This document shows positions 13,235 through 33,829 of a stretch of DNA of 64,000 nt, piece by piece; position 1 is the first letter of the stretch; every line of letters starts with the position of its first letter. The translations under genes and the position numbers were made by a program. This stretch comes from a virus. The stretch lies in IMG/VR virus record IMGVR_UViG_3300042473_001368; one strand, written 5' to 3'. The notes under the pieces are model-generated. The model was not told the DNA's origin and searched no databases. It worked only from the letters and a program-made list of their open reading frames with translations.

Positions 13235-13837
13235 ATGTATTATACGGTTTATAAGATAACAAACTTAATTAACGGTAAAATATATGTTGGTGTTCATAGA
13301 ACATCCAACTTGAATGATTCGTATATGGGATCTGGTATGCTTATTAAGCAAGCGATTACCAAACACGGAGTTGAAAACTTTGAGCGTGAATACTTAGCGG
13401 TCTTCGATAACCCTGAAGATATGTATGACATGGAGTCGAAAATAGTAAATGAAGAATTTATTAACTCTCCATCTTCTTACAACCTTGCTACAGGCGGCTA
13501 CGGAGGCTGTCCTATATCTGGATCAAAAGGAGGCAAAAATTGTGCTGCAAAGTATAAGACGGACCCTGCTCTTGCAGAGGAACGATATTTTAGAAATAAG
13601 CTTCGTTTTGAAGAGTTAAAAAAGCAGGGAAAATGTTTAGGTGGTCCAAAATTTAAAGGGATGAAACACACCGAAGAGACAAAAGCAAAGATCGGGGCTA
13701 GTATTTCTAAAAAATGTCGTGGAGAAAACAACTCTCAGTTCGGGACAATGTGGATAACAGATAAGGTTACAAATAAAAAGATTTCAAAATTCGAACCTAT
13801 CCCAGAAGGCTGGGAAAAAGGTCGTATAATAAAGTAA
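13235..13837 (+). mobile_element. free-standing GIY-YIG homing endonuclease (segB-like position in the tRNA array)
   Basis: VYKITNLINGKIYVG, Y.GSG, F.RE, NUMOD3-like KHTEETKAKIG; TATAAATA promoter. Confidence 0.88.
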
Positions 13838-26222: not shown

Positions 26223-27167
26223 ATGAAAAAACAATTACATCTAAAGTGGGCCGTTAGTACAACGCAAATTTTTATCGCTAACCTCGACCCTGAATTCACA
26301 CCGGTGACTGCAGATGAAAAGTTTCATCTTGCGATCAAGCAAAGCACCTTTCTAGGCGGTGAACCATATTTGAGATTTGCTGACTACTTATCTGATGCAA
26401 CTCAAGATCCTAATGCTCAGTTGTTTATTACGCAAAGAGCAGATAGTGTTGAGGACTTTTTCAGAGTTGTAATTGCGGCTGATGCTGCACGTAGAGCCGG
26501 CTTCAAAAACATTAGTCTTGTCTTACCTTATTTCCCTGGTGCTCGTCAAGATCGTGTTTGTAATGAAGGCGAAAGCTTGACTGTTAAGGTCTATGCTGAT
26601 ATGATTAATCGTTGCAATTTTGATGCTGTGTATATCCTAACTCCTCACAGCGATGTTACGCCTGCGCTTATTGATAATGTTGAGCTCATTGACGATCTTG
26701 TCTATGCCGAAAAGGCTGTAGCTGACATCTATCAAAAAACTGGAGTGAATAGCTTTATGATTATCTGTCCAGACGCTGGAGCAGGCAAACGCATTGAAAA
26801 GATTGTCAAACATCTTAAAGCAACGTTTGCGACATTTCATAATTTTGACGTAGTCAATTGCGAGAAAGTTCGTGATCTTGCTACAGGTGAATTGCAAAGC
26901 TTTAAGGTTCATGCTGATCGTAGCCTTAATGGCTATAACTGCATTATCTTTGATGACATTGTGAGCATGGGCGGCACCTTTATTGGACTCAACGCTAAAC
27001 TTGAAGAAGCTGGCGCAGAAAAAGTCTATTTGAGTGTCTCGCACGCAGATTGTCTCAAAGGCGTAGTCAAGATGTGCTCAACCTTCGATGGCGTTTACAT
27101 CACGAATAGCCGCAAAATTGATCGAGACGGTCTTAAGAATCTCACGATTTGGCCAATTGAACTCTAA
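26223..27167 (+). CDS. prs: ribose-phosphate pyrophosphokinase-like (probable NARP1 Adps)
   Basis: F.GGEP, LPYFPGARQDR, PHSDV, PDAGA, K.RD..TG.L, DDI...GGTF, VSH. Confidence 0.88.
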   Translation: MKKQLHLKWAVSTTQIFIANLDPEFTPVTADEKFHLAIKQSTFLGGEPYLRFADYLSDATQDPNAQLFITQRADSVEDFFRVVIAADAARRAGFKNISLVLPYFPGARQDRVCNEGESLTVKVYADMINRCNFDAVYILTPHSDVTPALIDNVELIDDLVYAEKAVADIYQKTGVNSFMIICPDAGAGKRIEKIVKHLKATFATFHNFDVVNCEKVRDLATGELQSFKVHADRSLNGYNCIIFDDIVSMGGTFIGLNAKLEEAGAEKVYLSVSHADCLKGVVKMCSTFDGVYITNSRKIDRDGLKNLTIWPIEL

Positions 27168-27195
27168 ACGAACTATAATATAATCTACTTACAAT

Positions 27196-27519
27196 ATGAA
27201 AACAATAGCACAACAACTTAACGTTAAGTCATTTCCCTTCAGTATCGAAGATTCCAATGGTAAAGAGATTTACTGGGAGAACTCAGATGGATATTGGGAG
27301 AAGCGCGAATACAATTCTAATGGTAATTGGTTTTACTACGAGAACTCCGATGGATATTGGGAGAAGAGTGAATACGATTCTGATGGTAATCGTATTTACT
27401 TAGAGGACTCCAATGGAACAGTCATTGATAATCGTCCTAAAACAGATGTTCAGAAAGCCATTGAACTTCTTACGAAAGAAGGATTGCTGGTAGATGGTAA
27501 GATTGTCATCATCAAATAA
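27196..27519 (+). CDS. beta-hairpin repeat protein (ENS.G.W.K.EY.S.GN) copy 1
   Basis: Internal ~22-aa repeats; paralogue of the next ORF. Confidence 0.75.
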   Translation: MKTIAQQLNVKSFPFSIEDSNGKEIYWENSDGYWEKREYNSNGNWFYYENSDGYWEKSEYDSDGNRIYLEDSNGTVIDNRPKTDVQKAIELLTKEGLLVDGKIVIIK

Positions 27520-27549
27520 TAACGAACCTCAATATAATTATAACATAAT

Positions 27550-27870
27550 ATGAAAACAATAGCACAACAACTCAATGTAAAGGACTTCCCGCTTATCATC
27601 AAAGATTCTAATGGTAAAGAGATTTACCGTGAGGAATCCAATGGAGGTTGGGTCAGACGCGAATACGACTCTAGCAATAGAGAGATTTACCTCGAAAACT
27701 CTGCTGGAAATTGGATTAAAAGAGAATACTCTCTCGCAGGAAGAGAAATTTACTATGAATCTTCTTTCGGAACACTCTATGATGCTCGTCCCAAGACAGA
27801 TGTTCAGAAAGCAATCGATCTTCTTACGAAAGAAGGATTGCTGGTAGATGGAAAGATCCTCAAGCAATAA
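27550..27870 (+). CDS. beta-hairpin repeat protein copy 2
   Basis: Shares MKTIAQQLNVK and RPKTDVQKAI..LTKEGLLVDGKI ends with copy 1. Confidence 0.75.
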   Translation: MKTIAQQLNVKDFPLIIKDSNGKEIYREESNGGWVRREYDSSNREIYLENSAGNWIKREYSLAGREIYYESSFGTLYDARPKTDVQKAIDLLTKEGLLVDGKILKQ

Positions 27871-27897
27871 CGAACCTCAACATAATTAACTTACAAT

Positions 27898-28731
27898 ATG
27901 AATAATACACTAGCACCGCTACTCGTCGACGGCTATAAAGTCGACCATCGCCGTCAATATCCAAGCAACAGCAAGCTTGTCTTTAGTAACCTTACTGCGC
28001 GAGGCTCTCGTGTAGCAGGTCAAAACAAAGTAGTTCTCTTTGGCTTGCAATATTTCATCAAGCGCTATCTCATTGAAGATTGGAATCGCAACTTCTTCGA
28101 GCGACCATTGGATGAGGTAACTGCAAAATACGCACGCCGTTTGCTCGCATATCTTGGACCTAACCAGATCGGCGATCAACACATTCGTGATTTACACGCT
28201 CTTGGCCACTTGCCTCTCGAAATCTGGAGCTTGCCTGAAGGCAGTCTCGTTGATCTTCGTGTGCCAATGTTTGTTGTATGGAATACAGATTCTCGTTTCT
28301 TCTGGCTGACTAATGCTATTGAAACTCTCTTGAGCACTACGATCTGGGGACCTTGCACGAGCGCAACAACTGCATTGATGTATCGTCGAATCTTAAATCG
28401 TTGGGCTCAAAAAACTGCTCCTGAAGCGATTGACTTTGTGCCATGGCAAGGCCACGACTTCTCCTTCCGCGGCCACTTTGGTCTCGAGGCTGCATCGATG
28501 AGCGGAGCTGCTCACTTACTGAGCTTCACTGGTACTGATACATTGCCTGCTATTGATTTCCTCGAGGAATATTATGGCGCTGATGTTGAGAAAGAACTCG
28601 TCGGTGGTTCGGTTGCTGCAACAGAACACAGCGTGATGTGCATGGGTATCGGCGAGTGTGAGGTTTATTTAGATTCTCTCTCTGAAGAGAGTCTTATTGA
28701 ATTTGCTGAGAAGAACGGTTATCGTTTTTAA
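27898..28731 (+). CDS. nadV: nicotinamide phosphoribosyltransferase-like (NARP1 Namat), N-terminal piece
   Basis: D.YKVDH..QYP, FGLQYF, LPEG, ETLLS, HDFSFRG, FTGTDT, SV.ATEHSVMC. Confidence 0.88.
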   Translation: MNNTLAPLLVDGYKVDHRRQYPSNSKLVFSNLTARGSRVAGQNKVVLFGLQYFIKRYLIEDWNRNFFERPLDEVTAKYARRLLAYLGPNQIGDQHIRDLHALGHLPLEIWSLPEGSLVDLRVPMFVVWNTDSRFFWLTNAIETLLSTTIWGPCTSATTALMYRRILNRWAQKTAPEAIDFVPWQGHDFSFRGHFGLEAASMSGAAHLLSFTGTDTLPAIDFLEEYYGADVEKELVGGSVAATEHSVMCMGIGECEVYLDSLSEESLIEFAEKNGYRF

Positions 28732-29503
28732 ATTGATTACACTCATCTTTTGACCAGTTATGCGATCGTCCCATATGTTTATTGAAATTTCCTCCATCTA
28801 AATTTTGTAATGAGCATATGGGACACGAAAGCTTAGGCCTAGCCTGAGCCCGCGCTTTAGCCCACTCTTTATTTTGACCTAGCAGCTTTGCTGCAGCGCT
28901 CATTTTCTGCTTTGTCGATTCACTATGAGATTTGCCGAGAAATGTTGGCTCTCTTGATTCTACCAGCAATTTCCCTCTATCTCCTCGCCAGAAATCTTCG
29001 TTAATTTTGTCCATCTTTAACCTAAACTCAGGAGTAGCCCATAACTCTTTCATTTTTTCTCTCCTATGTTGTCTGTATTCTTCACTTGCTTGTCGCGAAG
29101 AAACCGCTTTTGAAATCTTATTTACATGATCCTCAGAAAGCACCCTACCAATATTGCATATTATAAACGGTTTATTATTATTGTCGTGAGTATTCAAAAA
29201 ATCCTTTCTGGTACGAGCATTAACCTTTTTTAAGAATTTTGATTCAAATATACAAGCTTCAGTGTGCGTCTCAAACTGTTTGTGAATTACAATAGAAATG
29301 GGGGTAATGCCTTTATCTAAAAGATTTTTTACAGATAACGAACTACTATAATATTTAATAAACAGATCTTCAGAAGGTTTTAATTTTAACCTAATATTCG
29401 CACACCTAACACCATAGTAATATTTTAACTCACCGTCAACTTCAAACTTAAGCATATAAGTGTAACATTTAACATCATCATTTGTTTTATTAAGAACTAA
29501 CAT
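28694..29503 (-). mobile_element. free-standing GIY-YIG-like homing endonuclease inside the Nampt-like gene
   Basis: YTYML...YYYGVR...YYSSS, NUMOD3-like GKSHSESTKQKMS, C-terminal CPIC; TATAAATA upstream on the minus strand. Confidence 0.8.
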
Positions 29504-29538
29504 ATAATATTATTTATACTCCACAAGTCCAAAGTATC

Positions 29539-30375
29539 ATGAAAATAACACAAGAAAATAAAAAAGAATTCGCTGAATATTTGACATTTAAGCGATTAAT
29601 TACAGAAACATACCCAACTGGTATCGTAAGTATCGTAAGCGACACGTTTTCATTCTGGAATGTAGTCAATCCTGATGGAGGCATTTGCGCACAGCTTAAA
29701 GATTTGATTATGGCTCGTGATGGTAAGGTTGTCATTCGTCCTGACAGTGGTGATCCAGTGAAGATTGTTACTGGCTATACTGATGAAGAATGGACGGCTC
29801 TTGAATATGCTCGTAGTTATAGTGGAGGTTTGACGATGCCATCGGAACTTGAGCGTAAGGGCATGATTGTGTGCCTTTGGGAAATCTTCGGCGGTACCGA
29901 AACCAGCACTGGATATAAGCAGCTCGACTCTCACATTGGAGCAATCTATGGTGATAGCATTACTCTTGAGCGTGCAGAGGAAATCTGCCAACGCCTCGCT
30001 GATAAAGGCTTTGCATCGACTAACATTGTCTTTGGTATTGGCAGCTTTACCTATCAAGGCGCTGTAACTCCTGATGCAATTGTAACTCGCGACACCTATG
30101 GCTTTGCTGTAAAGAGCACCTATGGTGAAGTTGAGATCAACGGAGATATTGTTGGTAAAGAGATCTTCAAAGATCCTAAGACTGACAATGGTCTGAAGAA
30201 GAGTGCAAAAGGTCTGACCGCTGTCTATGAAACAGCAGATGGCTTTGAGCTCAAAGATCAAGCAACCTGGGATGAAGTTCGCAATTGCGCATTCTATCCT
30301 GTCTTCGCAAATGGCAATCAGTGTGTTGTTGAAACTCTAAGCGAGATTCGTGCTCGCCTTGCTAAAAACTTCTAA
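29539..30375 (+). CDS. nadV: Nampt-like (Namat) C-terminal piece
   Basis: P.GIVSIVSDT, VVIRPDSGDP, IYGDSIT, FGIGSFTYQ, TRDT.GFAVK, KDPKTD.G.KKSAKG. Confidence 0.88.
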   Translation: MKITQENKKEFAEYLTFKRLITETYPTGIVSIVSDTFSFWNVVNPDGGICAQLKDLIMARDGKVVIRPDSGDPVKIVTGYTDEEWTALEYARSYSGGLTMPSELERKGMIVCLWEIFGGTETSTGYKQLDSHIGAIYGDSITLERAEEICQRLADKGFASTNIVFGIGSFTYQGAVTPDAIVTRDTYGFAVKSTYGEVEINGDIVGKEIFKDPKTDNGLKKSAKGLTAVYETADGFELKDQATWDEVRNCAFYPVFANGNQCVVETLSEIRARLAKNF

Positions 30376-30376
30376 T

Positions 30377-30850
30377 ATGAAAAGTATTACACTATTCGCG
30401 CCAAATCTCTTAAGCGTTGATGAGATTATGCGGTATAGCAATAAGCGTAAAGTCTTTCTGGCCGGCAGCATCGAAATGGGTGCTGCCGAGCCATGGCAAG
30501 AGGAACTAGCGTCTCGCTTCGCAGATAACGATATTGTCTTTTATAACCCTCGCCGTCCTGATTGGGACAGCACATGGACTGATACAAGCGACGCATTTAA
30601 CGAGCAGGTAAACTGGGAGATGGATCACCTAGAAGAGGCTGATGAGATCATTCTCTATTTTGATCCAGCTACTAAGAGCCCGATTAGTCTATTGGAGCTT
30701 GGCTTGCATGCTGCTAGCAAAAAAGTAACGGTGTGTTGCCCTGATGGCTTTTGGCGCAAAGGTAATGTTCGTGTTGTCTGCGAGCGATACGATATACCTT
30801 TGATCCACAGCAAAGAAGAGCTCATCGATCACTTGCGCCGTGTCTGGTAA
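30377..30850 (+). CDS. nucleoside 2-deoxyribosyltransferase-like protein
   Basis: VFLAGSIEMG...WQ, NPRR, QV.WE..L, SPISLLELG. Confidence 0.8.
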   Translation: MKSITLFAPNLLSVDEIMRYSNKRKVFLAGSIEMGAAEPWQEELASRFADNDIVFYNPRRPDWDSTWTDTSDAFNEQVNWEMDHLEEADEIILYFDPATKSPISLLELGLHAASKKVTVCCPDGFWRKGNVRVVCERYDIPLIHSKEELIDHLRRVW

Positions 30851-30889
30851 GTATAACGAACTACGATATAATTAAGAGTAATACAAAAT

Positions 30890-31153
30890 ATGAACATCTA
30901 CCATATCTCTCAAACTGAAAATCGCGGCTATGATACCTATAGTGATGCTGTAGTAATTGCGCCTGACGTTGAAACTGCGCGCCGTGTAAACCCCAGTGAG
31001 TACGGCGACGTCTTTATGACTGACGAGGATTGGAAATATACTTATAGCAGCTGGGCGAGCTCGCCTGAAAATGTGAGCGTGACTCTTGTCGGAGTTGCAT
31101 CTGAAAACGAAAAATCGCCTCGCGTTGTTTGCGCAAGCTTTCACGCTGGCTAA
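30890..31153 (+). CDS. conserved phage hypothetical protein
   Basis: YDTYSDAVVIA and V.ASFHAG motifs. Confidence 0.7.
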   Translation: MNIYHISQTENRGYDTYSDAVVIAPDVETARRVNPSEYGDVFMTDEDWKYTYSSWASSPENVSVTLVGVASENEKSPRVVCASFHAG

Positions 31154-31164
31154 TTTACAAAATT

Positions 31165-31458
31165 ATGAAACTTGCATCTATTGAAACTATCAAAACCGTT
31201 GAGCAGCATTCAAATGCTGATGCTCTCGACATTGTAACTGTGCTTGGCTATCGCTGCATCGTTGGACGTGGTGCCTTCTCTCAAGGAGATAAGGTAGTTC
31301 TAATCCAACCTGATACTGTATTGCCTGACGAGCCATGGGCTGAAATGTTCCGTAAACGCAGCAACAGAGTGAAAGCTTGTCGTCTGCGTGGTGAATGGAG
31401 CTATTCAATAGTACTACCGTTATCAATTCTTCAAAATTACGGTGAACTTATCGAGTGA
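31165..31458 (+). CDS. RNA ligase (DRB0094-like), N-terminal piece
   Basis: MKLASI..I....H.NAD.L....V.G...V.....F..GD...I.PD..LP, RVK..RLRG..S. Confidence 0.75.
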   Translation: MKLASIETIKTVEQHSNADALDIVTVLGYRCIVGRGAFSQGDKVVLIQPDTVLPDEPWAEMFRKRSNRVKACRLRGEWSYSIVLPLSILQNYGELIE

Positions 31459-31498
31459 AAGCTATATGATTTTGTGGGGTGTAGTATAAATATGTTAT

Positions 31499-32359
31499 AT
31501 GAACTACACTAAGATATATAACTCACTAATAACTCAGGCAAAAAACAGACAGGTAGATATCAACCAGTATTATGAGCGACACCATATAGTACCTAAATGC
31601 TGTAACGGAGAAGATACAGAATCAAATACGGTACTTTTAACAGGTAGGGAGCATTACATTGCACATCTTTTATTGTGGAAGATGTTTCCGTCTAACAGCA
31701 AACTATTGTTTGCCTTTAGGATGATGTCGCATGCTAACAATAACGGTTTACGAACATATAAGTATAATGCTAGGTTGTACGAAGCTGCACGGCAATCACT
31801 TTCAACGTATCTTAAAACTAATAAAGAGATAGGTAAAAAGGTATCTGAAGCACTTAAAGGTAGAAAGCAAAATGCTGAGCATGTTAAAAAGCGTATGGAT
31901 AGTAGAAAACGAAACGGTAAAAAATATACCACTGAACATATCGAGAAATACCGTAACGGAACTTTACGTGCACTTGCACGGGGCTGGAAACCTAATACAA
32001 CAGGATTGAGATCGCATGTAAAAGGAGAATTTAAACATTCTGATAAAACAAAAAATATTTTACGTCATAAAAGATTGGGTAAAACGTTTGATGAAATATA
32101 TGGACCTGAAAAGGCTCTACAGATGAGACAGCAAAAGAAGGAGTTAGTTGGTATCAGTAATCCGAACTTTCGTATAATAGACGTAGAGTTGGTTAAAGAT
32201 ATGCTCGATAATGGTATACCAATGAAAGAAATTGTTAGAGAGCTAAAATCTAGTTATGTAACAATCTCAAAGAGATTTCAAGATGTTTTTGGAGTTTCTA
32301 TATCCAACTATACAAACTCTAAAGACTTAACAAAAAAACGGATCACGAATAAACATTAA
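31499..32359 (+). mobile_element. free-standing HNH homing endonuclease (MobE-like)
   Basis: MNYTKIY..LI..AK.R, YERHHIVPKC..G, LT.REHYIAH.LL; TATAAATA promoter. Confidence 0.85.
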
Positions 32360-32366
32360 ATAGTAT

Positions 32367-33098
32367 ATGAAACTTAAAATAAGCGGACAAATAATAGACC
32401 TCGTTCCAGGCACTGAAGTCTCTGAGATTATTGGCGTCACCAAATATGAGCCACCTGCTCCTCAAGATCTTAGCGCTGCTGGCTATTTGCCTCGTGGATT
32501 GCCTAAGACTGATGAAGAGCGCTGGCAGAATATTGTTGACTTGCCCTTTGGTGAAGTGTGTGATATTACTCTCAAGATCGATGGCAGCTCGTTAAGTGTC
32601 TATGCTCGTAAACTCGAAGATGGCTCTTGGGAAACCGGAGTAACTTCTCGTAGCTTGCGCCTCAAGCCTGAATGCGATAACAAATACACTCAAGGAGTTG
32701 CTAAGTATGATATTCTCAACAAGCTCCTCGCTTACTGTCAGCAGCATGATGTAAGTCTCAGCTTGCGCGGTGAGCTGTATGGTAATGGCATTCAGGGCTT
32801 CGGCAAAAATCCTCACGGTCAACTTCCGCTTAATTTCGCTGCTTTCAGTGTCTTTAATATGGATAAGCTTGAGTATGCAGGTCCGAGCGACTCGCATTAC
32901 TACGAGAAGATTTGTGCTGAGCTAAACATTCCTGTTGTGCCAATGCTCGAGAAAGGCGTTGTGTTAACTCCAGAGCACATTCAAAAATATAGCGCAGAGA
33001 TTGATAAGATCGATGGTAAAGCTTTTGAAGGCGTTGTAGTTAAGCATGCAGGTGGCTCGTTTAAGATTATTAACCTGCAATATGATGAAAGAAAATAA
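32367..33098 (+). CDS. RNA ligase (DRB0094/Rnl2-like), catalytic piece
   Basis: GVTKYEPP, PKTDEER.QN, motif I KIDGSS, RGELYG.GIQ, EGVV, FKIIN. Confidence 0.82.
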   Translation: MKLKISGQIIDLVPGTEVSEIIGVTKYEPPAPQDLSAAGYLPRGLPKTDEERWQNIVDLPFGEVCDITLKIDGSSLSVYARKLEDGSWETGVTSRSLRLKPECDNKYTQGVAKYDILNKLLAYCQQHDVSLSLRGELYGNGIQGFGKNPHGQLPLNFAAFSVFNMDKLEYAGPSDSHYYEKICAELNIPVVPMLEKGVVLTPEHIQKYSAEIDKIDGKAFEGVVVKHAGGSFKIINLQYDERK

Positions 33099-33791: not shown

Positions 33792-33829
33792 AATAATATT
33801 TACAAAACGAACTAACATATAATTATAAC

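What the first reader, a model, noticed from the sequence alone, without database searches (positions are those of the whole stretch)
27898..30375. Nampt/Namat gene in two pieces, split by an antisense homing endonuclease with no intron
Seen: the N-piece ends shortly after TEHSVMC with a short tail (..AEKNGYRF*), and the C-piece restarts with its own ATG just before TFKRLITE.YP.GIVSIVSD. The 807-nt gap is almost entirely filled by a minus-strand GIY-YIG-like ORF overlapping the N-piece stop, leaving no room for a group I core; no intein motifs are seen. Established: a comparable genes-in-pieces case is the Aeh1 nrdA split by mobE, which assembles as an active complex. Inference: a two-subunit NAD-salvage anti-defence enzyme.
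Basis: partly seen in the sequence, partly recalled or inferred. Interest (0 to 1): 0.7.

Follow-up and report, generated by a model that had tools for sequence, protein, structure and literature searches.

The report
Endonuclease-split phage NAD-rebuilding enzyme gene
In this uncultured T4-like phage the gene for a Nampt/Namat-type enzyme (used by phages to rebuild NAD+ after bacterial immunity destroys it) is cut into two separately translated halves by a backwards-facing selfish endonuclease gene; the cut is real, recurs widely, probably still gives a working two-chain enzyme, and a same-site case was published for Pectobacterium phage CB7.

Summary
Observation confirmed exactly: N piece 27898-28731 (+), antisense endonuclease 28694-29503 (-), C piece 29539-30375 (+). 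22 relatives have one uninterrupted gene joining N residue 256 to C residue 16. No intron model matches; tail (about 21-23 aa) and head (12-15 aa) are too short for a split intein. The endonuclease is SegE-type GIY-YIG + NUMOD3 + zinc finger, with all family-invariant residues. The insert is mobile: an independent metagenome contig (L110) is 99-100% identical over the endonuclease and adjoining flanks but about 89-97% further out, and the close relative L005 lacks it. It is also old: six 40-47%-identical relatives of this endonuclease sit antisense at the same junction of far more diverged Nampt genes, with a conserved N-piece tail. Other inserts (HNH/EndoVII type in L026/L027; same-strand HNH in phage CB7) hit the same loop. 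All 35 N tails are acidic; 59 of 78 C heads are basic. Both halves are under purifying selection, NAD+-contact residues are shared between them, and the C piece has its own phage promoter. Best reading: a two-chain enzyme as in Aeh1 NrdA; activity untested. CB7 was published in 2020 (RT-PCR, no splicing), and this scan has met split Nampt/Namat genes in at least five other genomes. New member of a known kind.

The parts
26223..27167 (+). Prs/Adps-like gene, upstream partner of the NAD+ pathway pair
   Evidence: Pfam Pribosyltran_N and Pribosyltran, phrog_619, TIGR01251. Best solved matches are ordinary PRPP synthetases at about 1e-17, so Adps and Prs cannot be told apart here.
27898..28731 (+). 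Nampt/Namat N piece (277 aa). The body runs to about 28665; it carries the catalytic His and the contacts equivalent to D13, Y15, R40, F189, S190, R192, D215 and A242 of SpbetaL1 Namat.
   Evidence: 96.5% aa identity to the intact L005 gene. dN/dS is 0.05 against L110 and 0.07 against L005.
28666..28731 (+). N-piece tail: about 21-23 residues absent from intact homologues, net charge -5. Its last 38 nt overlap the endonuclease 3' end on the other strand.
   Evidence: Junction alignments. The tail motif is conserved in L111-L116 and in P0003, P0026 and P0028.
28671..28694 (+). 9-bp hairpin inside the tail-coding stretch, abutting the endonuclease stop codon; role unknown
   Evidence: It is not followed by a clear T tract on either strand.
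28694..29503 (-). Free-standing homing endonuclease gene: SegE-type GIY-YIG core, NUMOD3 motif, C-terminal CPxC...H...H zinc finger
   Evidence: NUMOD3 and phrog_314. 880 homologues were found. Invariant columns Y29, Y30, G31, R33, E87 and N104 are kept. 14 of 35 homologues hit PF19835 and 24 of 35 hit NUMOD3. L110 carries a copy 99% identical.
29511..29518 (-). T4-late-promoter-like octamer 8 nt before the endonuclease ATG
   Evidence: The same octamer lies 6-8 nt before the other two endonuclease genes of the window, at 13235 and 31499.
29495..29508 (+). Phage promoter motif AACT-N4-TATAAT, 30 nt before the C-piece ATG; it overlaps the endonuclease start codon on the other strand
   Evidence: 32 copies in the window, all on the + strand, against 0.41 expected; 0 of 100 shuffles reach 32.
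29539..30375 (+). Nampt/Namat C piece (278 aa). The head is 29539-29583; the piece carries the contacts equivalent to R306, D308, G360, D361, G390, S391, F392, T398, R399 and D400.
   Evidence: The head is predicted as an N-terminal extension of the first native helix (H5-24, pLDDT 78-90). dN/dS is 0.21 against both L110 and L005.
29584..29690 (+). About 100 nt of C-side flank that travels with the insert: 61-72% nt identity to the endonuclease-free L005, but 98-99% identity to L110 up to about 29620 and about 90% beyond
   Evidence: dS is 1.18 in the first 35 codons after the junction, 0.46 in the rest of C, and 0.14 in the last 35 codons of N.
28271..29620 (.). Tract of 99-100% identity with L110, centred on the endonuclease (a co-conversion-like tract); identity is about 89-97% further out on both sides
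   Evidence: Sliding identity.

Best explanation
A mobile cassette built around a free-standing SegE-type GIY-YIG homing endonuclease gene has inserted, in antisense orientation, into the loop just after the catalytic histidine of a phage Nampt/Namat gene. The cassette supplies everything needed to turn one gene into two. It gives the upstream half an acidic tail of about 21-23 residues and a stop codon. It gives the downstream half a phage promoter, a start codon and a short helical head. The two polypeptides are translated separately and reassemble into the usual dimeric enzyme, here (N+C)2, whose active site is built from residues of both pieces. The tail and head probably help assembly, as shown for the mobE-split NrdA of phage Aeh1. 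The endonuclease, driven by a late-type promoter, cuts uninterrupted alleles in co-infecting relatives and is copied in together with its adaptors and some flanking sequence. Shown here: the anatomy, absence of intron and intein features, mobility, long persistence, purifying selection, and partition of the active-site residues. Inferred: assembly, enzyme activity, the role of the tail and head, and the cleavage specificity.
For: Anatomy and clean complementary coverage of the family profile and of 9W5X. Intact single genes in all 22 relatives of the first scan. The break loop tolerates length changes: L025 has an in-frame insertion of about 100 aa and L009, L010 and L013 have longer loops. 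No Rfam match at E<=1 in the window or in five other split loci. Mobility: L110 has endonuclease and N piece 99% identical but C piece 86-89%, with a 99-100% tract over 28271-29620; L005 (85-94% nt) lacks the insert; split and intact alleles interleave on the N-body tree, with 18 changes of which at least 12 are forced by starred branches. Persistence: six relatives of this endonuclease at 40-47% identity (L111-L116) lie antisense at the same junction, with both flanking pieces seen in five of them; N, endonuclease and C have diverged to similar degrees (39-53%, 40-62%, 54-66%), and the tail motif is conserved. Dozens of free-standing N halves and C halves exist, and 15 pairs share the same longest-contig length. 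dN/dS between split loci is 0.05-0.27 for both halves. NAD+-contact residues listed for SpbetaL1 Namat (PMC12774641) are divided between the pieces and conserved apart from A362 (Ser here) and Y396. The C piece has its own copy of a strongly over-represented phage promoter motif, and lack of an SD is normal in this phage (6 of 54 ORFs). All 35 tails are acidic (mean -5.6) and 59 of 78 heads are basic. Precedents: Aeh1 NrdA tails are essential for activity (PMC3045599); the HNH gene in the CB7 Nampt is not spliced out by RT-PCR (PMC7344957), and CB7 is split in the same loop.
Against: There is no transcript, protein or activity data for this phage. Because the cassette is mobile, part of the divergence used for dN/dS may have built up while the genes were intact. 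The N piece folds poorly alone (mean pLDDT 60.6), and no heterodimer model could be made with the tools. The window's own head has net charge 0, so a simple charge-pairing model fits it less well than other cassette types. The last 30 tail codons of L026/L027 have dN/dS 0.86, though that stretch also encodes the endonuclease end on the other strand. Rfam can miss very divergent introns.
Confidence: 0.75

Rival explanations
1. The insertion inactivated the gene: the two halves are a young pseudogene that has not yet decayed, and the phage relies on other routes to NAD+.
For: No functional data exist. The insert is recently mobile (99-100% tract shared with L110), so this particular allele could be young. 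The N piece alone is a poor fold.
Against: The same endonuclease lineage sits in Nampt genes that differ by about 50% in sequence, with both halves full length wherever the contig reaches and with a conserved tail motif. Dozens of N and C halves have conserved lengths and ends. dN/dS is 0.05-0.27. The catalytic and binding residues are kept apart from A362 (Ser here) and one clamp aromatic. A dedicated promoter precedes the C piece.
Confidence: 0.12
2. The intervening 918 nt is a self-splicing intron (with the endonuclease gene on its antisense strand), or another RNA-level mechanism restores one reading frame.
For: The 5' side ends in T and the insert ends in G, as group I splice sites require, but that is a 1-in-16 coincidence. 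Phage endonuclease genes often sit in introns; CB7 has several that do splice.
Against: No intron family matches at E<=1 in the window or in L026, L027, L110, L114 or L116. Only 35 nt are not endonuclease-coding. The tail and head are conserved as protein across cassettes. The C piece has its own start codon and promoter. In the published same-site case RT-PCR found no splicing.
Confidence: 0.04
3. A 'fractured gene': the tail and head are halves of a split intein that ligates the two pieces by protein trans-splicing.
For: Fractured genes with an endonuclease gene between the enzyme halves are known from phage metagenomes (PMC2677866).
Against: The tail (about 21-23 aa) plus head (12-15 aa) come to fewer than 40 residues, far below the size of an intein (sizes from established knowledge). 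No intein or Hint domain is found in either piece. In fractured genes all three ORFs lie on one strand, whereas here the endonuclease is antisense. The head is predicted as a plain extension of a native helix.
Confidence: 0.02
4. Only one piece is functional on its own (a new, smaller function), and the other is a remnant.
For: The C piece folds moderately well alone (mean pLDDT 73.6).
Against: Substrate contacts and the catalytic His are divided between the pieces. N and C halves co-occur (15 matching contig lengths; all full loci). Both are under similar purifying selection.
Confidence: 0.05

Closest known systems
Pectobacterium phage vB_PatM_CB7 nicotinamide phosphoribosyl transferase CB7_244 / HNH CB7_245 / CB7_246 (Buttimer et al. 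2020, PMC7344957); the annotation notes show the same layout in phage phiTE
   Same: The same enzyme family is split in the same loop just after the catalytic His (N piece 278 aa), with an acidic tail (-3) and a basic head (+2). A Prs-like gene lies upstream. RT-PCR did not detect removal of the endonuclease gene, and the authors proposed two peptides.
   Different: CB7 has an HNH endonuclease on the same strand that overlaps both pieces. Here the endonuclease is a SegE-type GIY-YIG gene on the opposite strand, overlapping only the N-piece end and diverging from the C piece across a 35-nt two-promoter spacer. The phages are unrelated (Certrevirus against an uncultured T4-like phage). CB7 has the canonical Namat clamp motif; this clade has a 7-residue insertion in it.
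Aeromonas phage Aeh1 nrdA-a / mobE / nrdA-b, 'genes in pieces' (Crona et al. 2011, PMC3045599)
   Same: A free-standing homing endonuclease splits an enzyme gene inside the fold that forms the active site. Active-site residues end up on two chains. Unique tails created by the insertion flank the break, and there is no RNA or protein splicing.
   Different: The enzyme is different (ribonucleotide reductase), mobE is an HNH gene on the same strand, and it is a single known locus. Assembly, activity and the need for the tails were shown by experiment there and are only inferred here. Here the tail and head are conserved across a whole endonuclease lineage, and several unrelated inserts use the same loop.
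Fractured genes with split inteins and a free-standing endonuclease gene (Dassa et al. 2009, PMC2677866)
   Same: A phage enzyme gene is broken in two with an endonuclease gene (GIY-YIG in some cases) between the halves, and control elements are brought in by the insert.
   Different: Those rely on split inteins of normal size and have all ORFs on one strand. Here the added peptides are far too short for an intein and the endonuclease is antisense.
SpbetaL1 / Bas63 Namat of the NARP1 pathway (PMC12774641; bioRxiv 10.1101/2024.02.11.579819)
   Same: It is the best solved-structure match (9W5X, E 2e-76 for N and 1e-67 for C). The catalytic core and most NAD+ contacts are conserved, the clamp-loop Arg is present, and a Prs-like gene lies upstream.
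   Different: Those enzymes are single chains. The clamp-helix motif is interrupted here by 7 residues, and the second adenine-stacking aromatic (Y396) is replaced, so ADPR-PP specificity is not established.

Membership tests
Genes in pieces made by a free-standing homing endonuclease (Aeh1 nrdA type) | Relatives encode the protein as one uninterrupted gene | tested here: met
   All 22 loci of the first scan and 78 of 80 loci of the second scan are uninterrupted. L005, at 85-94% nt identity, lacks the insert.
Genes in pieces made by a free-standing homing endonuclease (Aeh1 nrdA type) | An endonuclease ORF lies between the pieces, without an intron or intein | tested here: met
   SegE-type GIY-YIG ORF. 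No Rfam match at E<=1. No intein domains, and the added peptides total fewer than 40 aa. Splicing was not tested on RNA.
Genes in pieces made by a free-standing homing endonuclease (Aeh1 nrdA type) | Separate stop and start codons, with junction tails that intact homologues lack | tested here: met
Genes in pieces made by a free-standing homing endonuclease (Aeh1 nrdA type) | Active-site residues are divided between the two polypeptides | tested here: met
   The NAD+ contacts of 9W5W map to both pieces.
Genes in pieces made by a free-standing homing endonuclease (Aeh1 nrdA type) | The pieces assemble into an active enzyme and the tails are needed | not testable with these tools
   Only indirect support is available: purifying selection, a conserved tail and the charge pattern. 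No multimer prediction was possible.
Nampt/Namat (type II phosphoribosyltransferase fold) | NAMPT_N plus NAPRTase domains, a catalytic His and the nicotinamide/ribose-phosphate contacts | tested here: met
   Pfam, PHROG and NCBIfam matches. Alignment to 9W5X with the core residues conserved.
Namat (NARP1) as opposed to Nampt | Clamp-helix consensus GS-X-Phi-X-Phi-X-Phi-TRD with aromatics at positions 3 and 7 (PMC12774641) | tested here: not met
   Position 3 (Phe) is kept, but 7 residues are inserted and the position-7 aromatic is lost. The insertion is clade-wide: 84 of 197 sequences carry it, intact forms included.
Namat (NARP1) as opposed to Nampt | A clamp-loop stacking residue (Arg/Lys/Tyr) and an adjacent Adps (Prs-like) gene | tested here: inconclusive
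   The Arg equivalent to R40 is present and invariant. A Prs-like gene lies upstream, but it matches ordinary PRPP synthetases and no Adps structure stood out.
GIY-YIG homing endonucleases, SegE type | The two Tyr-containing motifs, the conserved Arg, the catalytic Glu and the Asn | tested here: met
   Y14/Y16, then Y29, Y30, G31, R33, E87 and N104 are invariant or nearly so across 35 homologues.
GIY-YIG homing endonucleases, SegE type | A direct match to the Pfam GIY-YIG models | tested here: inconclusive
   The window's protein itself hits only NUMOD3, but 14 of 35 homologues hit PF19835. The profile against solved structures reached only the I-TevI DNA-binding domain, weakly (E 0.02).
Group I intron carrying an endonuclease gene | A recognisable catalytic RNA core flanking the ORF | tested here: not met
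   only 35 nt lie outside the ORF.
Fractured gene with a split intein | N- and C-intein halves of normal size, in frame with the enzyme halves, and all ORFs on one strand | tested here: not met

The most novel reading that the evidence does not exclude
The tail and head are portable assembly adaptors that belong to the mobile element, not to the host gene. At least four unrelated cassette families each carry a matched acidic tail and a mostly basic helical head, and all of them target the one loop after the catalytic histidine of Nampt/Namat. The nucleases identified so far are SegE-type GIY-YIG, HNH/EndoVII-type, and the CB7 HNH. That would make protein-level complementation a general third way, beside introns and inteins, for selfish endonucleases to render their insertion harmless. 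Here it acts on an anti-defence enzyme, whose allele exchange between phages the cassettes would also drive.
Probability: 0.45. Interest if true: 0.7.

Novelty: new member of a known kind. Interest (0 to 1): 0.5.

Why it matters
Function restored by tails that the mobile element brought in has been shown by experiment only for Aeh1 NrdA. The Nampt/Namat loop offers many natural, independent replicates of that solution, with different nucleases, orientations and tail/head pairs. This makes the rules of such adaptors testable. It also shows that a phage counter-defence gene is a hot spot of endonuclease-driven exchange. For annotation, half-length Nampt ORFs in phage genomes should not be called pseudogenes or fragments.

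Tried and rejected
1. I first read the tail as accidental read-through into inserted DNA (a hairpin plus the antisense endonuclease end). I dropped this when the tail motif proved conserved as protein across L111-L116.

2. I first read the lower identity of the C piece to L005 as a gene-wide discontinuity. The sliding profile shows it is confined to about 100 nt next to the junction and to one hypervariable loop.

3. A possible duplicated junction (a four-residue word present in both the tail and the head, 10 of 12 nt alike) and an 8-nt imperfect direct repeat at the insert ends are too short to separate from chance. I did not pursue them.

4. Two loci found with a back-translated pattern of the window's tail (L108, L109) were chance matches.

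5. The endonuclease gave no relatives in IMG/VR and no solved-structure match as a single sequence.

6. The Alishewanella phage hit that seemed to include the head is an intact gene.

7. The AlphaFold model of the N piece alone is of low confidence, so I did not use its tail structure.

The contigs of the P-series halves, including P0003 with the window's tail type and the third and fourth cassette types, could therefore not be inspected. Their N/C pairing rests on identical longest-contig lengths.

9. The late-promoter octamer is not over-represented in the window as a whole (7 against 6 expected). Only its position before the three endonuclease genes is notable.
Full report
**1. What is there**

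The window holds three ORFs at the stated coordinates:
- a 277-aa ORF at 27898-28731 (+);
- a 269-aa ORF at 28694-29503 (-), which overlaps the last 38 nt of the first;
- after a 35-nt spacer, a 278-aa ORF at 29539-30375 (+).

The two plus-strand ORFs are complementary parts of one enzyme family. They cover positions 9-273 and 259-496 of the 500-position Nampt profile phrog_448. They cover residues 8-253 and 255-489 of the solved SpbetaL1 Namat, 9W5X (the identity of that entry is confirmed in PMC12774641). GC drops to about 0.28-0.32 inside the insert, against 0.44-0.49 in the gene.

**2. The gene is whole in relatives**

A scan of IMG/VR with the C piece gave 22 loci. All have one continuous gene in which N residue 256 is followed, after one residue, by C residue 16. 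L005 is a close relative of the whole region, at 85-94% nt identity. It lacks this insert, and it also lacks the HNH gene that interrupts the nearby RNA ligase gene.

About 21-23 residues at the end of the N piece (the tail) and 12-15 residues at the start of the C piece (the head) have no counterpart in intact proteins. The loop that is broken varies in length among intact relatives, and in L025 it holds an in-frame insertion of about 100 residues. So it is a permissive site.

**3. Not an intron, not an intein**

No Rfam family matches at E<=1 in 27000-31500, nor in five other split loci. Only 35 nt lie outside the endonuclease ORF. Neither piece has intein domains, and tail plus head total fewer than 40 residues. 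In the fractured genes of Dassa et al., all ORFs lie on one strand and the intein halves are of normal size.

**4. The endonuclease**

Pfam sees only a NUMOD3 motif in the window's protein. A search of 1.84 billion representative proteins found 880 homologues. In an alignment of 35 of them, the window's protein keeps every invariant column (Y29, Y30, G31, R33, E87, N104). Of these homologues, 14 hit PF19835 (SegE GIY-YIG) and 24 hit NUMOD3. The close subfamily also shares a C-terminal zinc finger. A late-promoter-like octamer lies 8 nt before its ATG, as it does before the two other endonuclease genes of the window.

**5. The insert is mobile**

An independent metagenome contig, L110, carries the same arrangement. 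Its endonuclease and N piece are 99% identical to the window's, but its C piece only 86-89%. Nucleotide identity is 99-100% from about 28271 to 29620 and about 89-97% further out on both sides. That is a co-conversion-like tract centred on the endonuclease.

Against the endonuclease-free L005, identity is 98-100% up to about 20 nt before the insertion. It then falls to 61-72% for about 100 nt on the C side. dS is 1.18 there, against 0.46 in the rest of C and 0.14 in the last 35 codons of N.

On a tree of the shared N-terminal region (91 sequences), split and intact alleles interleave. Parsimony needs 18 changes, and at least 12 are forced by well-supported branches. Several split alleles have near-identical intact sisters. 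This matches the reported tendency of nuclease genes to sit at boundaries of exchange between phages (PMC10448857, abstract seen).

**6. The arrangement is also old and recurrent**

Six relatives of this endonuclease at 40-47% identity (L111-L116) all lie antisense at the same junction of a Nampt gene. Both flanking pieces are visible in five of them; in L115 the contig ends before the C piece. Their Nampt genes are themselves only 37-67% (N) and 49-51% (C) identical to the window's.

Across these loci N, endonuclease and C have diverged to similar degrees: 39-53%, 40-62% and 54-66%. The N tail keeps a recognisable motif, and the endonuclease 3' end overlaps the N stop in five of six arrangements.

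The protein database holds dozens of free-standing N halves (271-292 aa) and C halves (275-312 aa). They have conserved ends that fall into several tail/head families, and 15 N/C pairs share the same longest-contig length. In L026 and L027 the same loop is occupied by an unrelated antisense HNH/endonuclease VII-type gene, with a different tail and head.

**7. Evidence that the halves still work**

- **Selection.** dN/dS between split loci is 0.05 (N) and 0.21 (C) for window against L110. It is 0.15 and 0.20 for L026 against L027, whose endonuclease gives 0.15. It is 0.23 and 0.27 for L114 against L116. The caveat is that a mobile insert may have entered already diverged genes.
- **Active site.** The NAD+ contacts listed for SpbetaL1 Namat divide between the pieces. 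D13, Y15, R40, F189, S190, R192, D215, A242 and the catalytic His fall on N. R306, D308, G360, D361, A362, G390, S391, F392, T398, R399 and D400 fall on C. All are conserved except A362 (Ser here) and the clamp aromatic Y396.
- **Expression.** The C piece is preceded at 30 nt by a perfect copy of AACT-N4-TATAAT. That motif is present 32 times, all on the + strand, against 0.41 expected. The missing Shine-Dalgarno sequence is normal here, since only 6 of 54 ORFs have one.
- **Charge pattern.** All 35 tails are acidic (mean -5.6 over about 29 residues). Of 78 heads, 59 are basic. The window's tail is -5 and its head is 0.
- **Folds.** The C piece alone folds moderately well (pLDDT 73.6), with its head extending the first native helix. 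The N piece alone folds poorly (pLDDT 60.6), which is uninformative.

**8. Namat or Nampt?**

The best solved match is Namat, the clamp-loop Arg is present, and a Prs-like gene lies upstream. However, the clamp-helix signature of Namat is interrupted by a clade-wide 7-residue insertion and loses its second aromatic. The Prs-like protein cannot be told apart from ordinary PRPP synthetase. The anti-defence role is therefore plausible, not shown.

**9. What is known**

Aeh1 NrdA, split by mobE, assembles as (a/b)2, and the insertion-derived tails are essential (PMC3045599). Buttimer et al. 2020 report that HNH CB7_245 interrupts the nicotinamide phosphoribosyl transferase ORFs. RT-PCR did not show it being removed, and the authors suggest two peptides as in Aeh1. 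That paper's text also lists a differently numbered gene product under the same enzyme name among the spliced ones, which looks like a slip.

In the record, CB7_244/245/246 is split in the same loop, with an acidic tail and a basic head, but the HNH gene is on the same strand. The NARP1 papers do not mention split forms. The scan itself has met endonuclease-split Nampt/Namat genes in at least five other genomes.

**10. Verdict**

The locus is a new member of a known kind: genes in pieces made by a free-standing homing endonuclease, already reported for this enzyme family. Compared with the published case it has a different nuclease family, the opposite orientation and its own promoter for the downstream half. 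The wider pattern is several unrelated cassettes, each with its own charged tail and head, converging on one loop.

Noticed in passing
31129-33098: The RNA ligase gene is also in pieces. An N fragment at 31129-31458 covers phrog_968 positions 9-112, an HNH endonuclease gene lies at 31499-32359, and a C fragment at 32367-33098 covers phrog_968 positions 125-388. In L005 the two ligase parts lie 56 nt apart with no HNH gene.
   Followed up: partly
13235-13837 (+): A third Seg-like endonuclease gene (phrog_314, E 3e-43). Three of the window's seven copies of the late-promoter-like octamer lie 6-8 nt before the start codons of the three endonuclease genes.
   Followed up: partly
whole window, e.g. 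27171-27184, 29495-29508, 30859-30872, 33810-33823: The promoter-like motif AACT-N4-TATAAT occurs 32 times, all on the + strand, against 0.41 expected, usually a few bases before a start codon. Only 6 of 54 long ORFs have an SD-like motif, which points to short-leader or SD-independent translation.
   Followed up: partly
27196-27519 and 27550-27870: Two paralogous ORFs of about 107 aa with internal short repeats lie between the Prs-like gene and the N piece and match no family. This stretch is replaced by other DNA in L005 and is only 60-77% identical in L110.
   Followed up: no
L025:4924-6786 (same contig as L043): An intact Nampt carries an in-frame insertion of about 100 residues in exactly the loop that is split elsewhere. 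Its origin is unknown; it could be a remnant of a former insert.
   Followed up: no
L026:4009-4917 and L027:4009-4917 (-): A LAGLIDADG-like ORF lies directly upstream of the split Nampt N piece, so these loci carry two different endonuclease-type genes side by side.
   Followed up: no
30040-30095 (C piece residues about 168-186): A 7-residue insertion sits inside the Namat clamp-helix motif and the second adenine-stacking aromatic is lost. It is shared by 84 of 197 related sequences, both split and intact, and may mean a different donor specificity in this clade.
   Followed up: partly
29720-29870: A hypervariable, length-variable loop in the C piece is 60-77% identical even to L110, which is otherwise 89-100% identical.
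   Followed up: no
28671-28694: A 9-bp hairpin lies inside the tail-coding sequence, abutting the endonuclease stop codon. There is no clear T tract on either strand, and its function is unknown.
   Followed up: no
30377-30850 (+): A nucleoside 2-deoxyribosyltransferase-like gene (PF15891, E 5e-34) lies directly downstream of the C piece. It may be part of the same nucleotide/NAD module.
   Followed up: no
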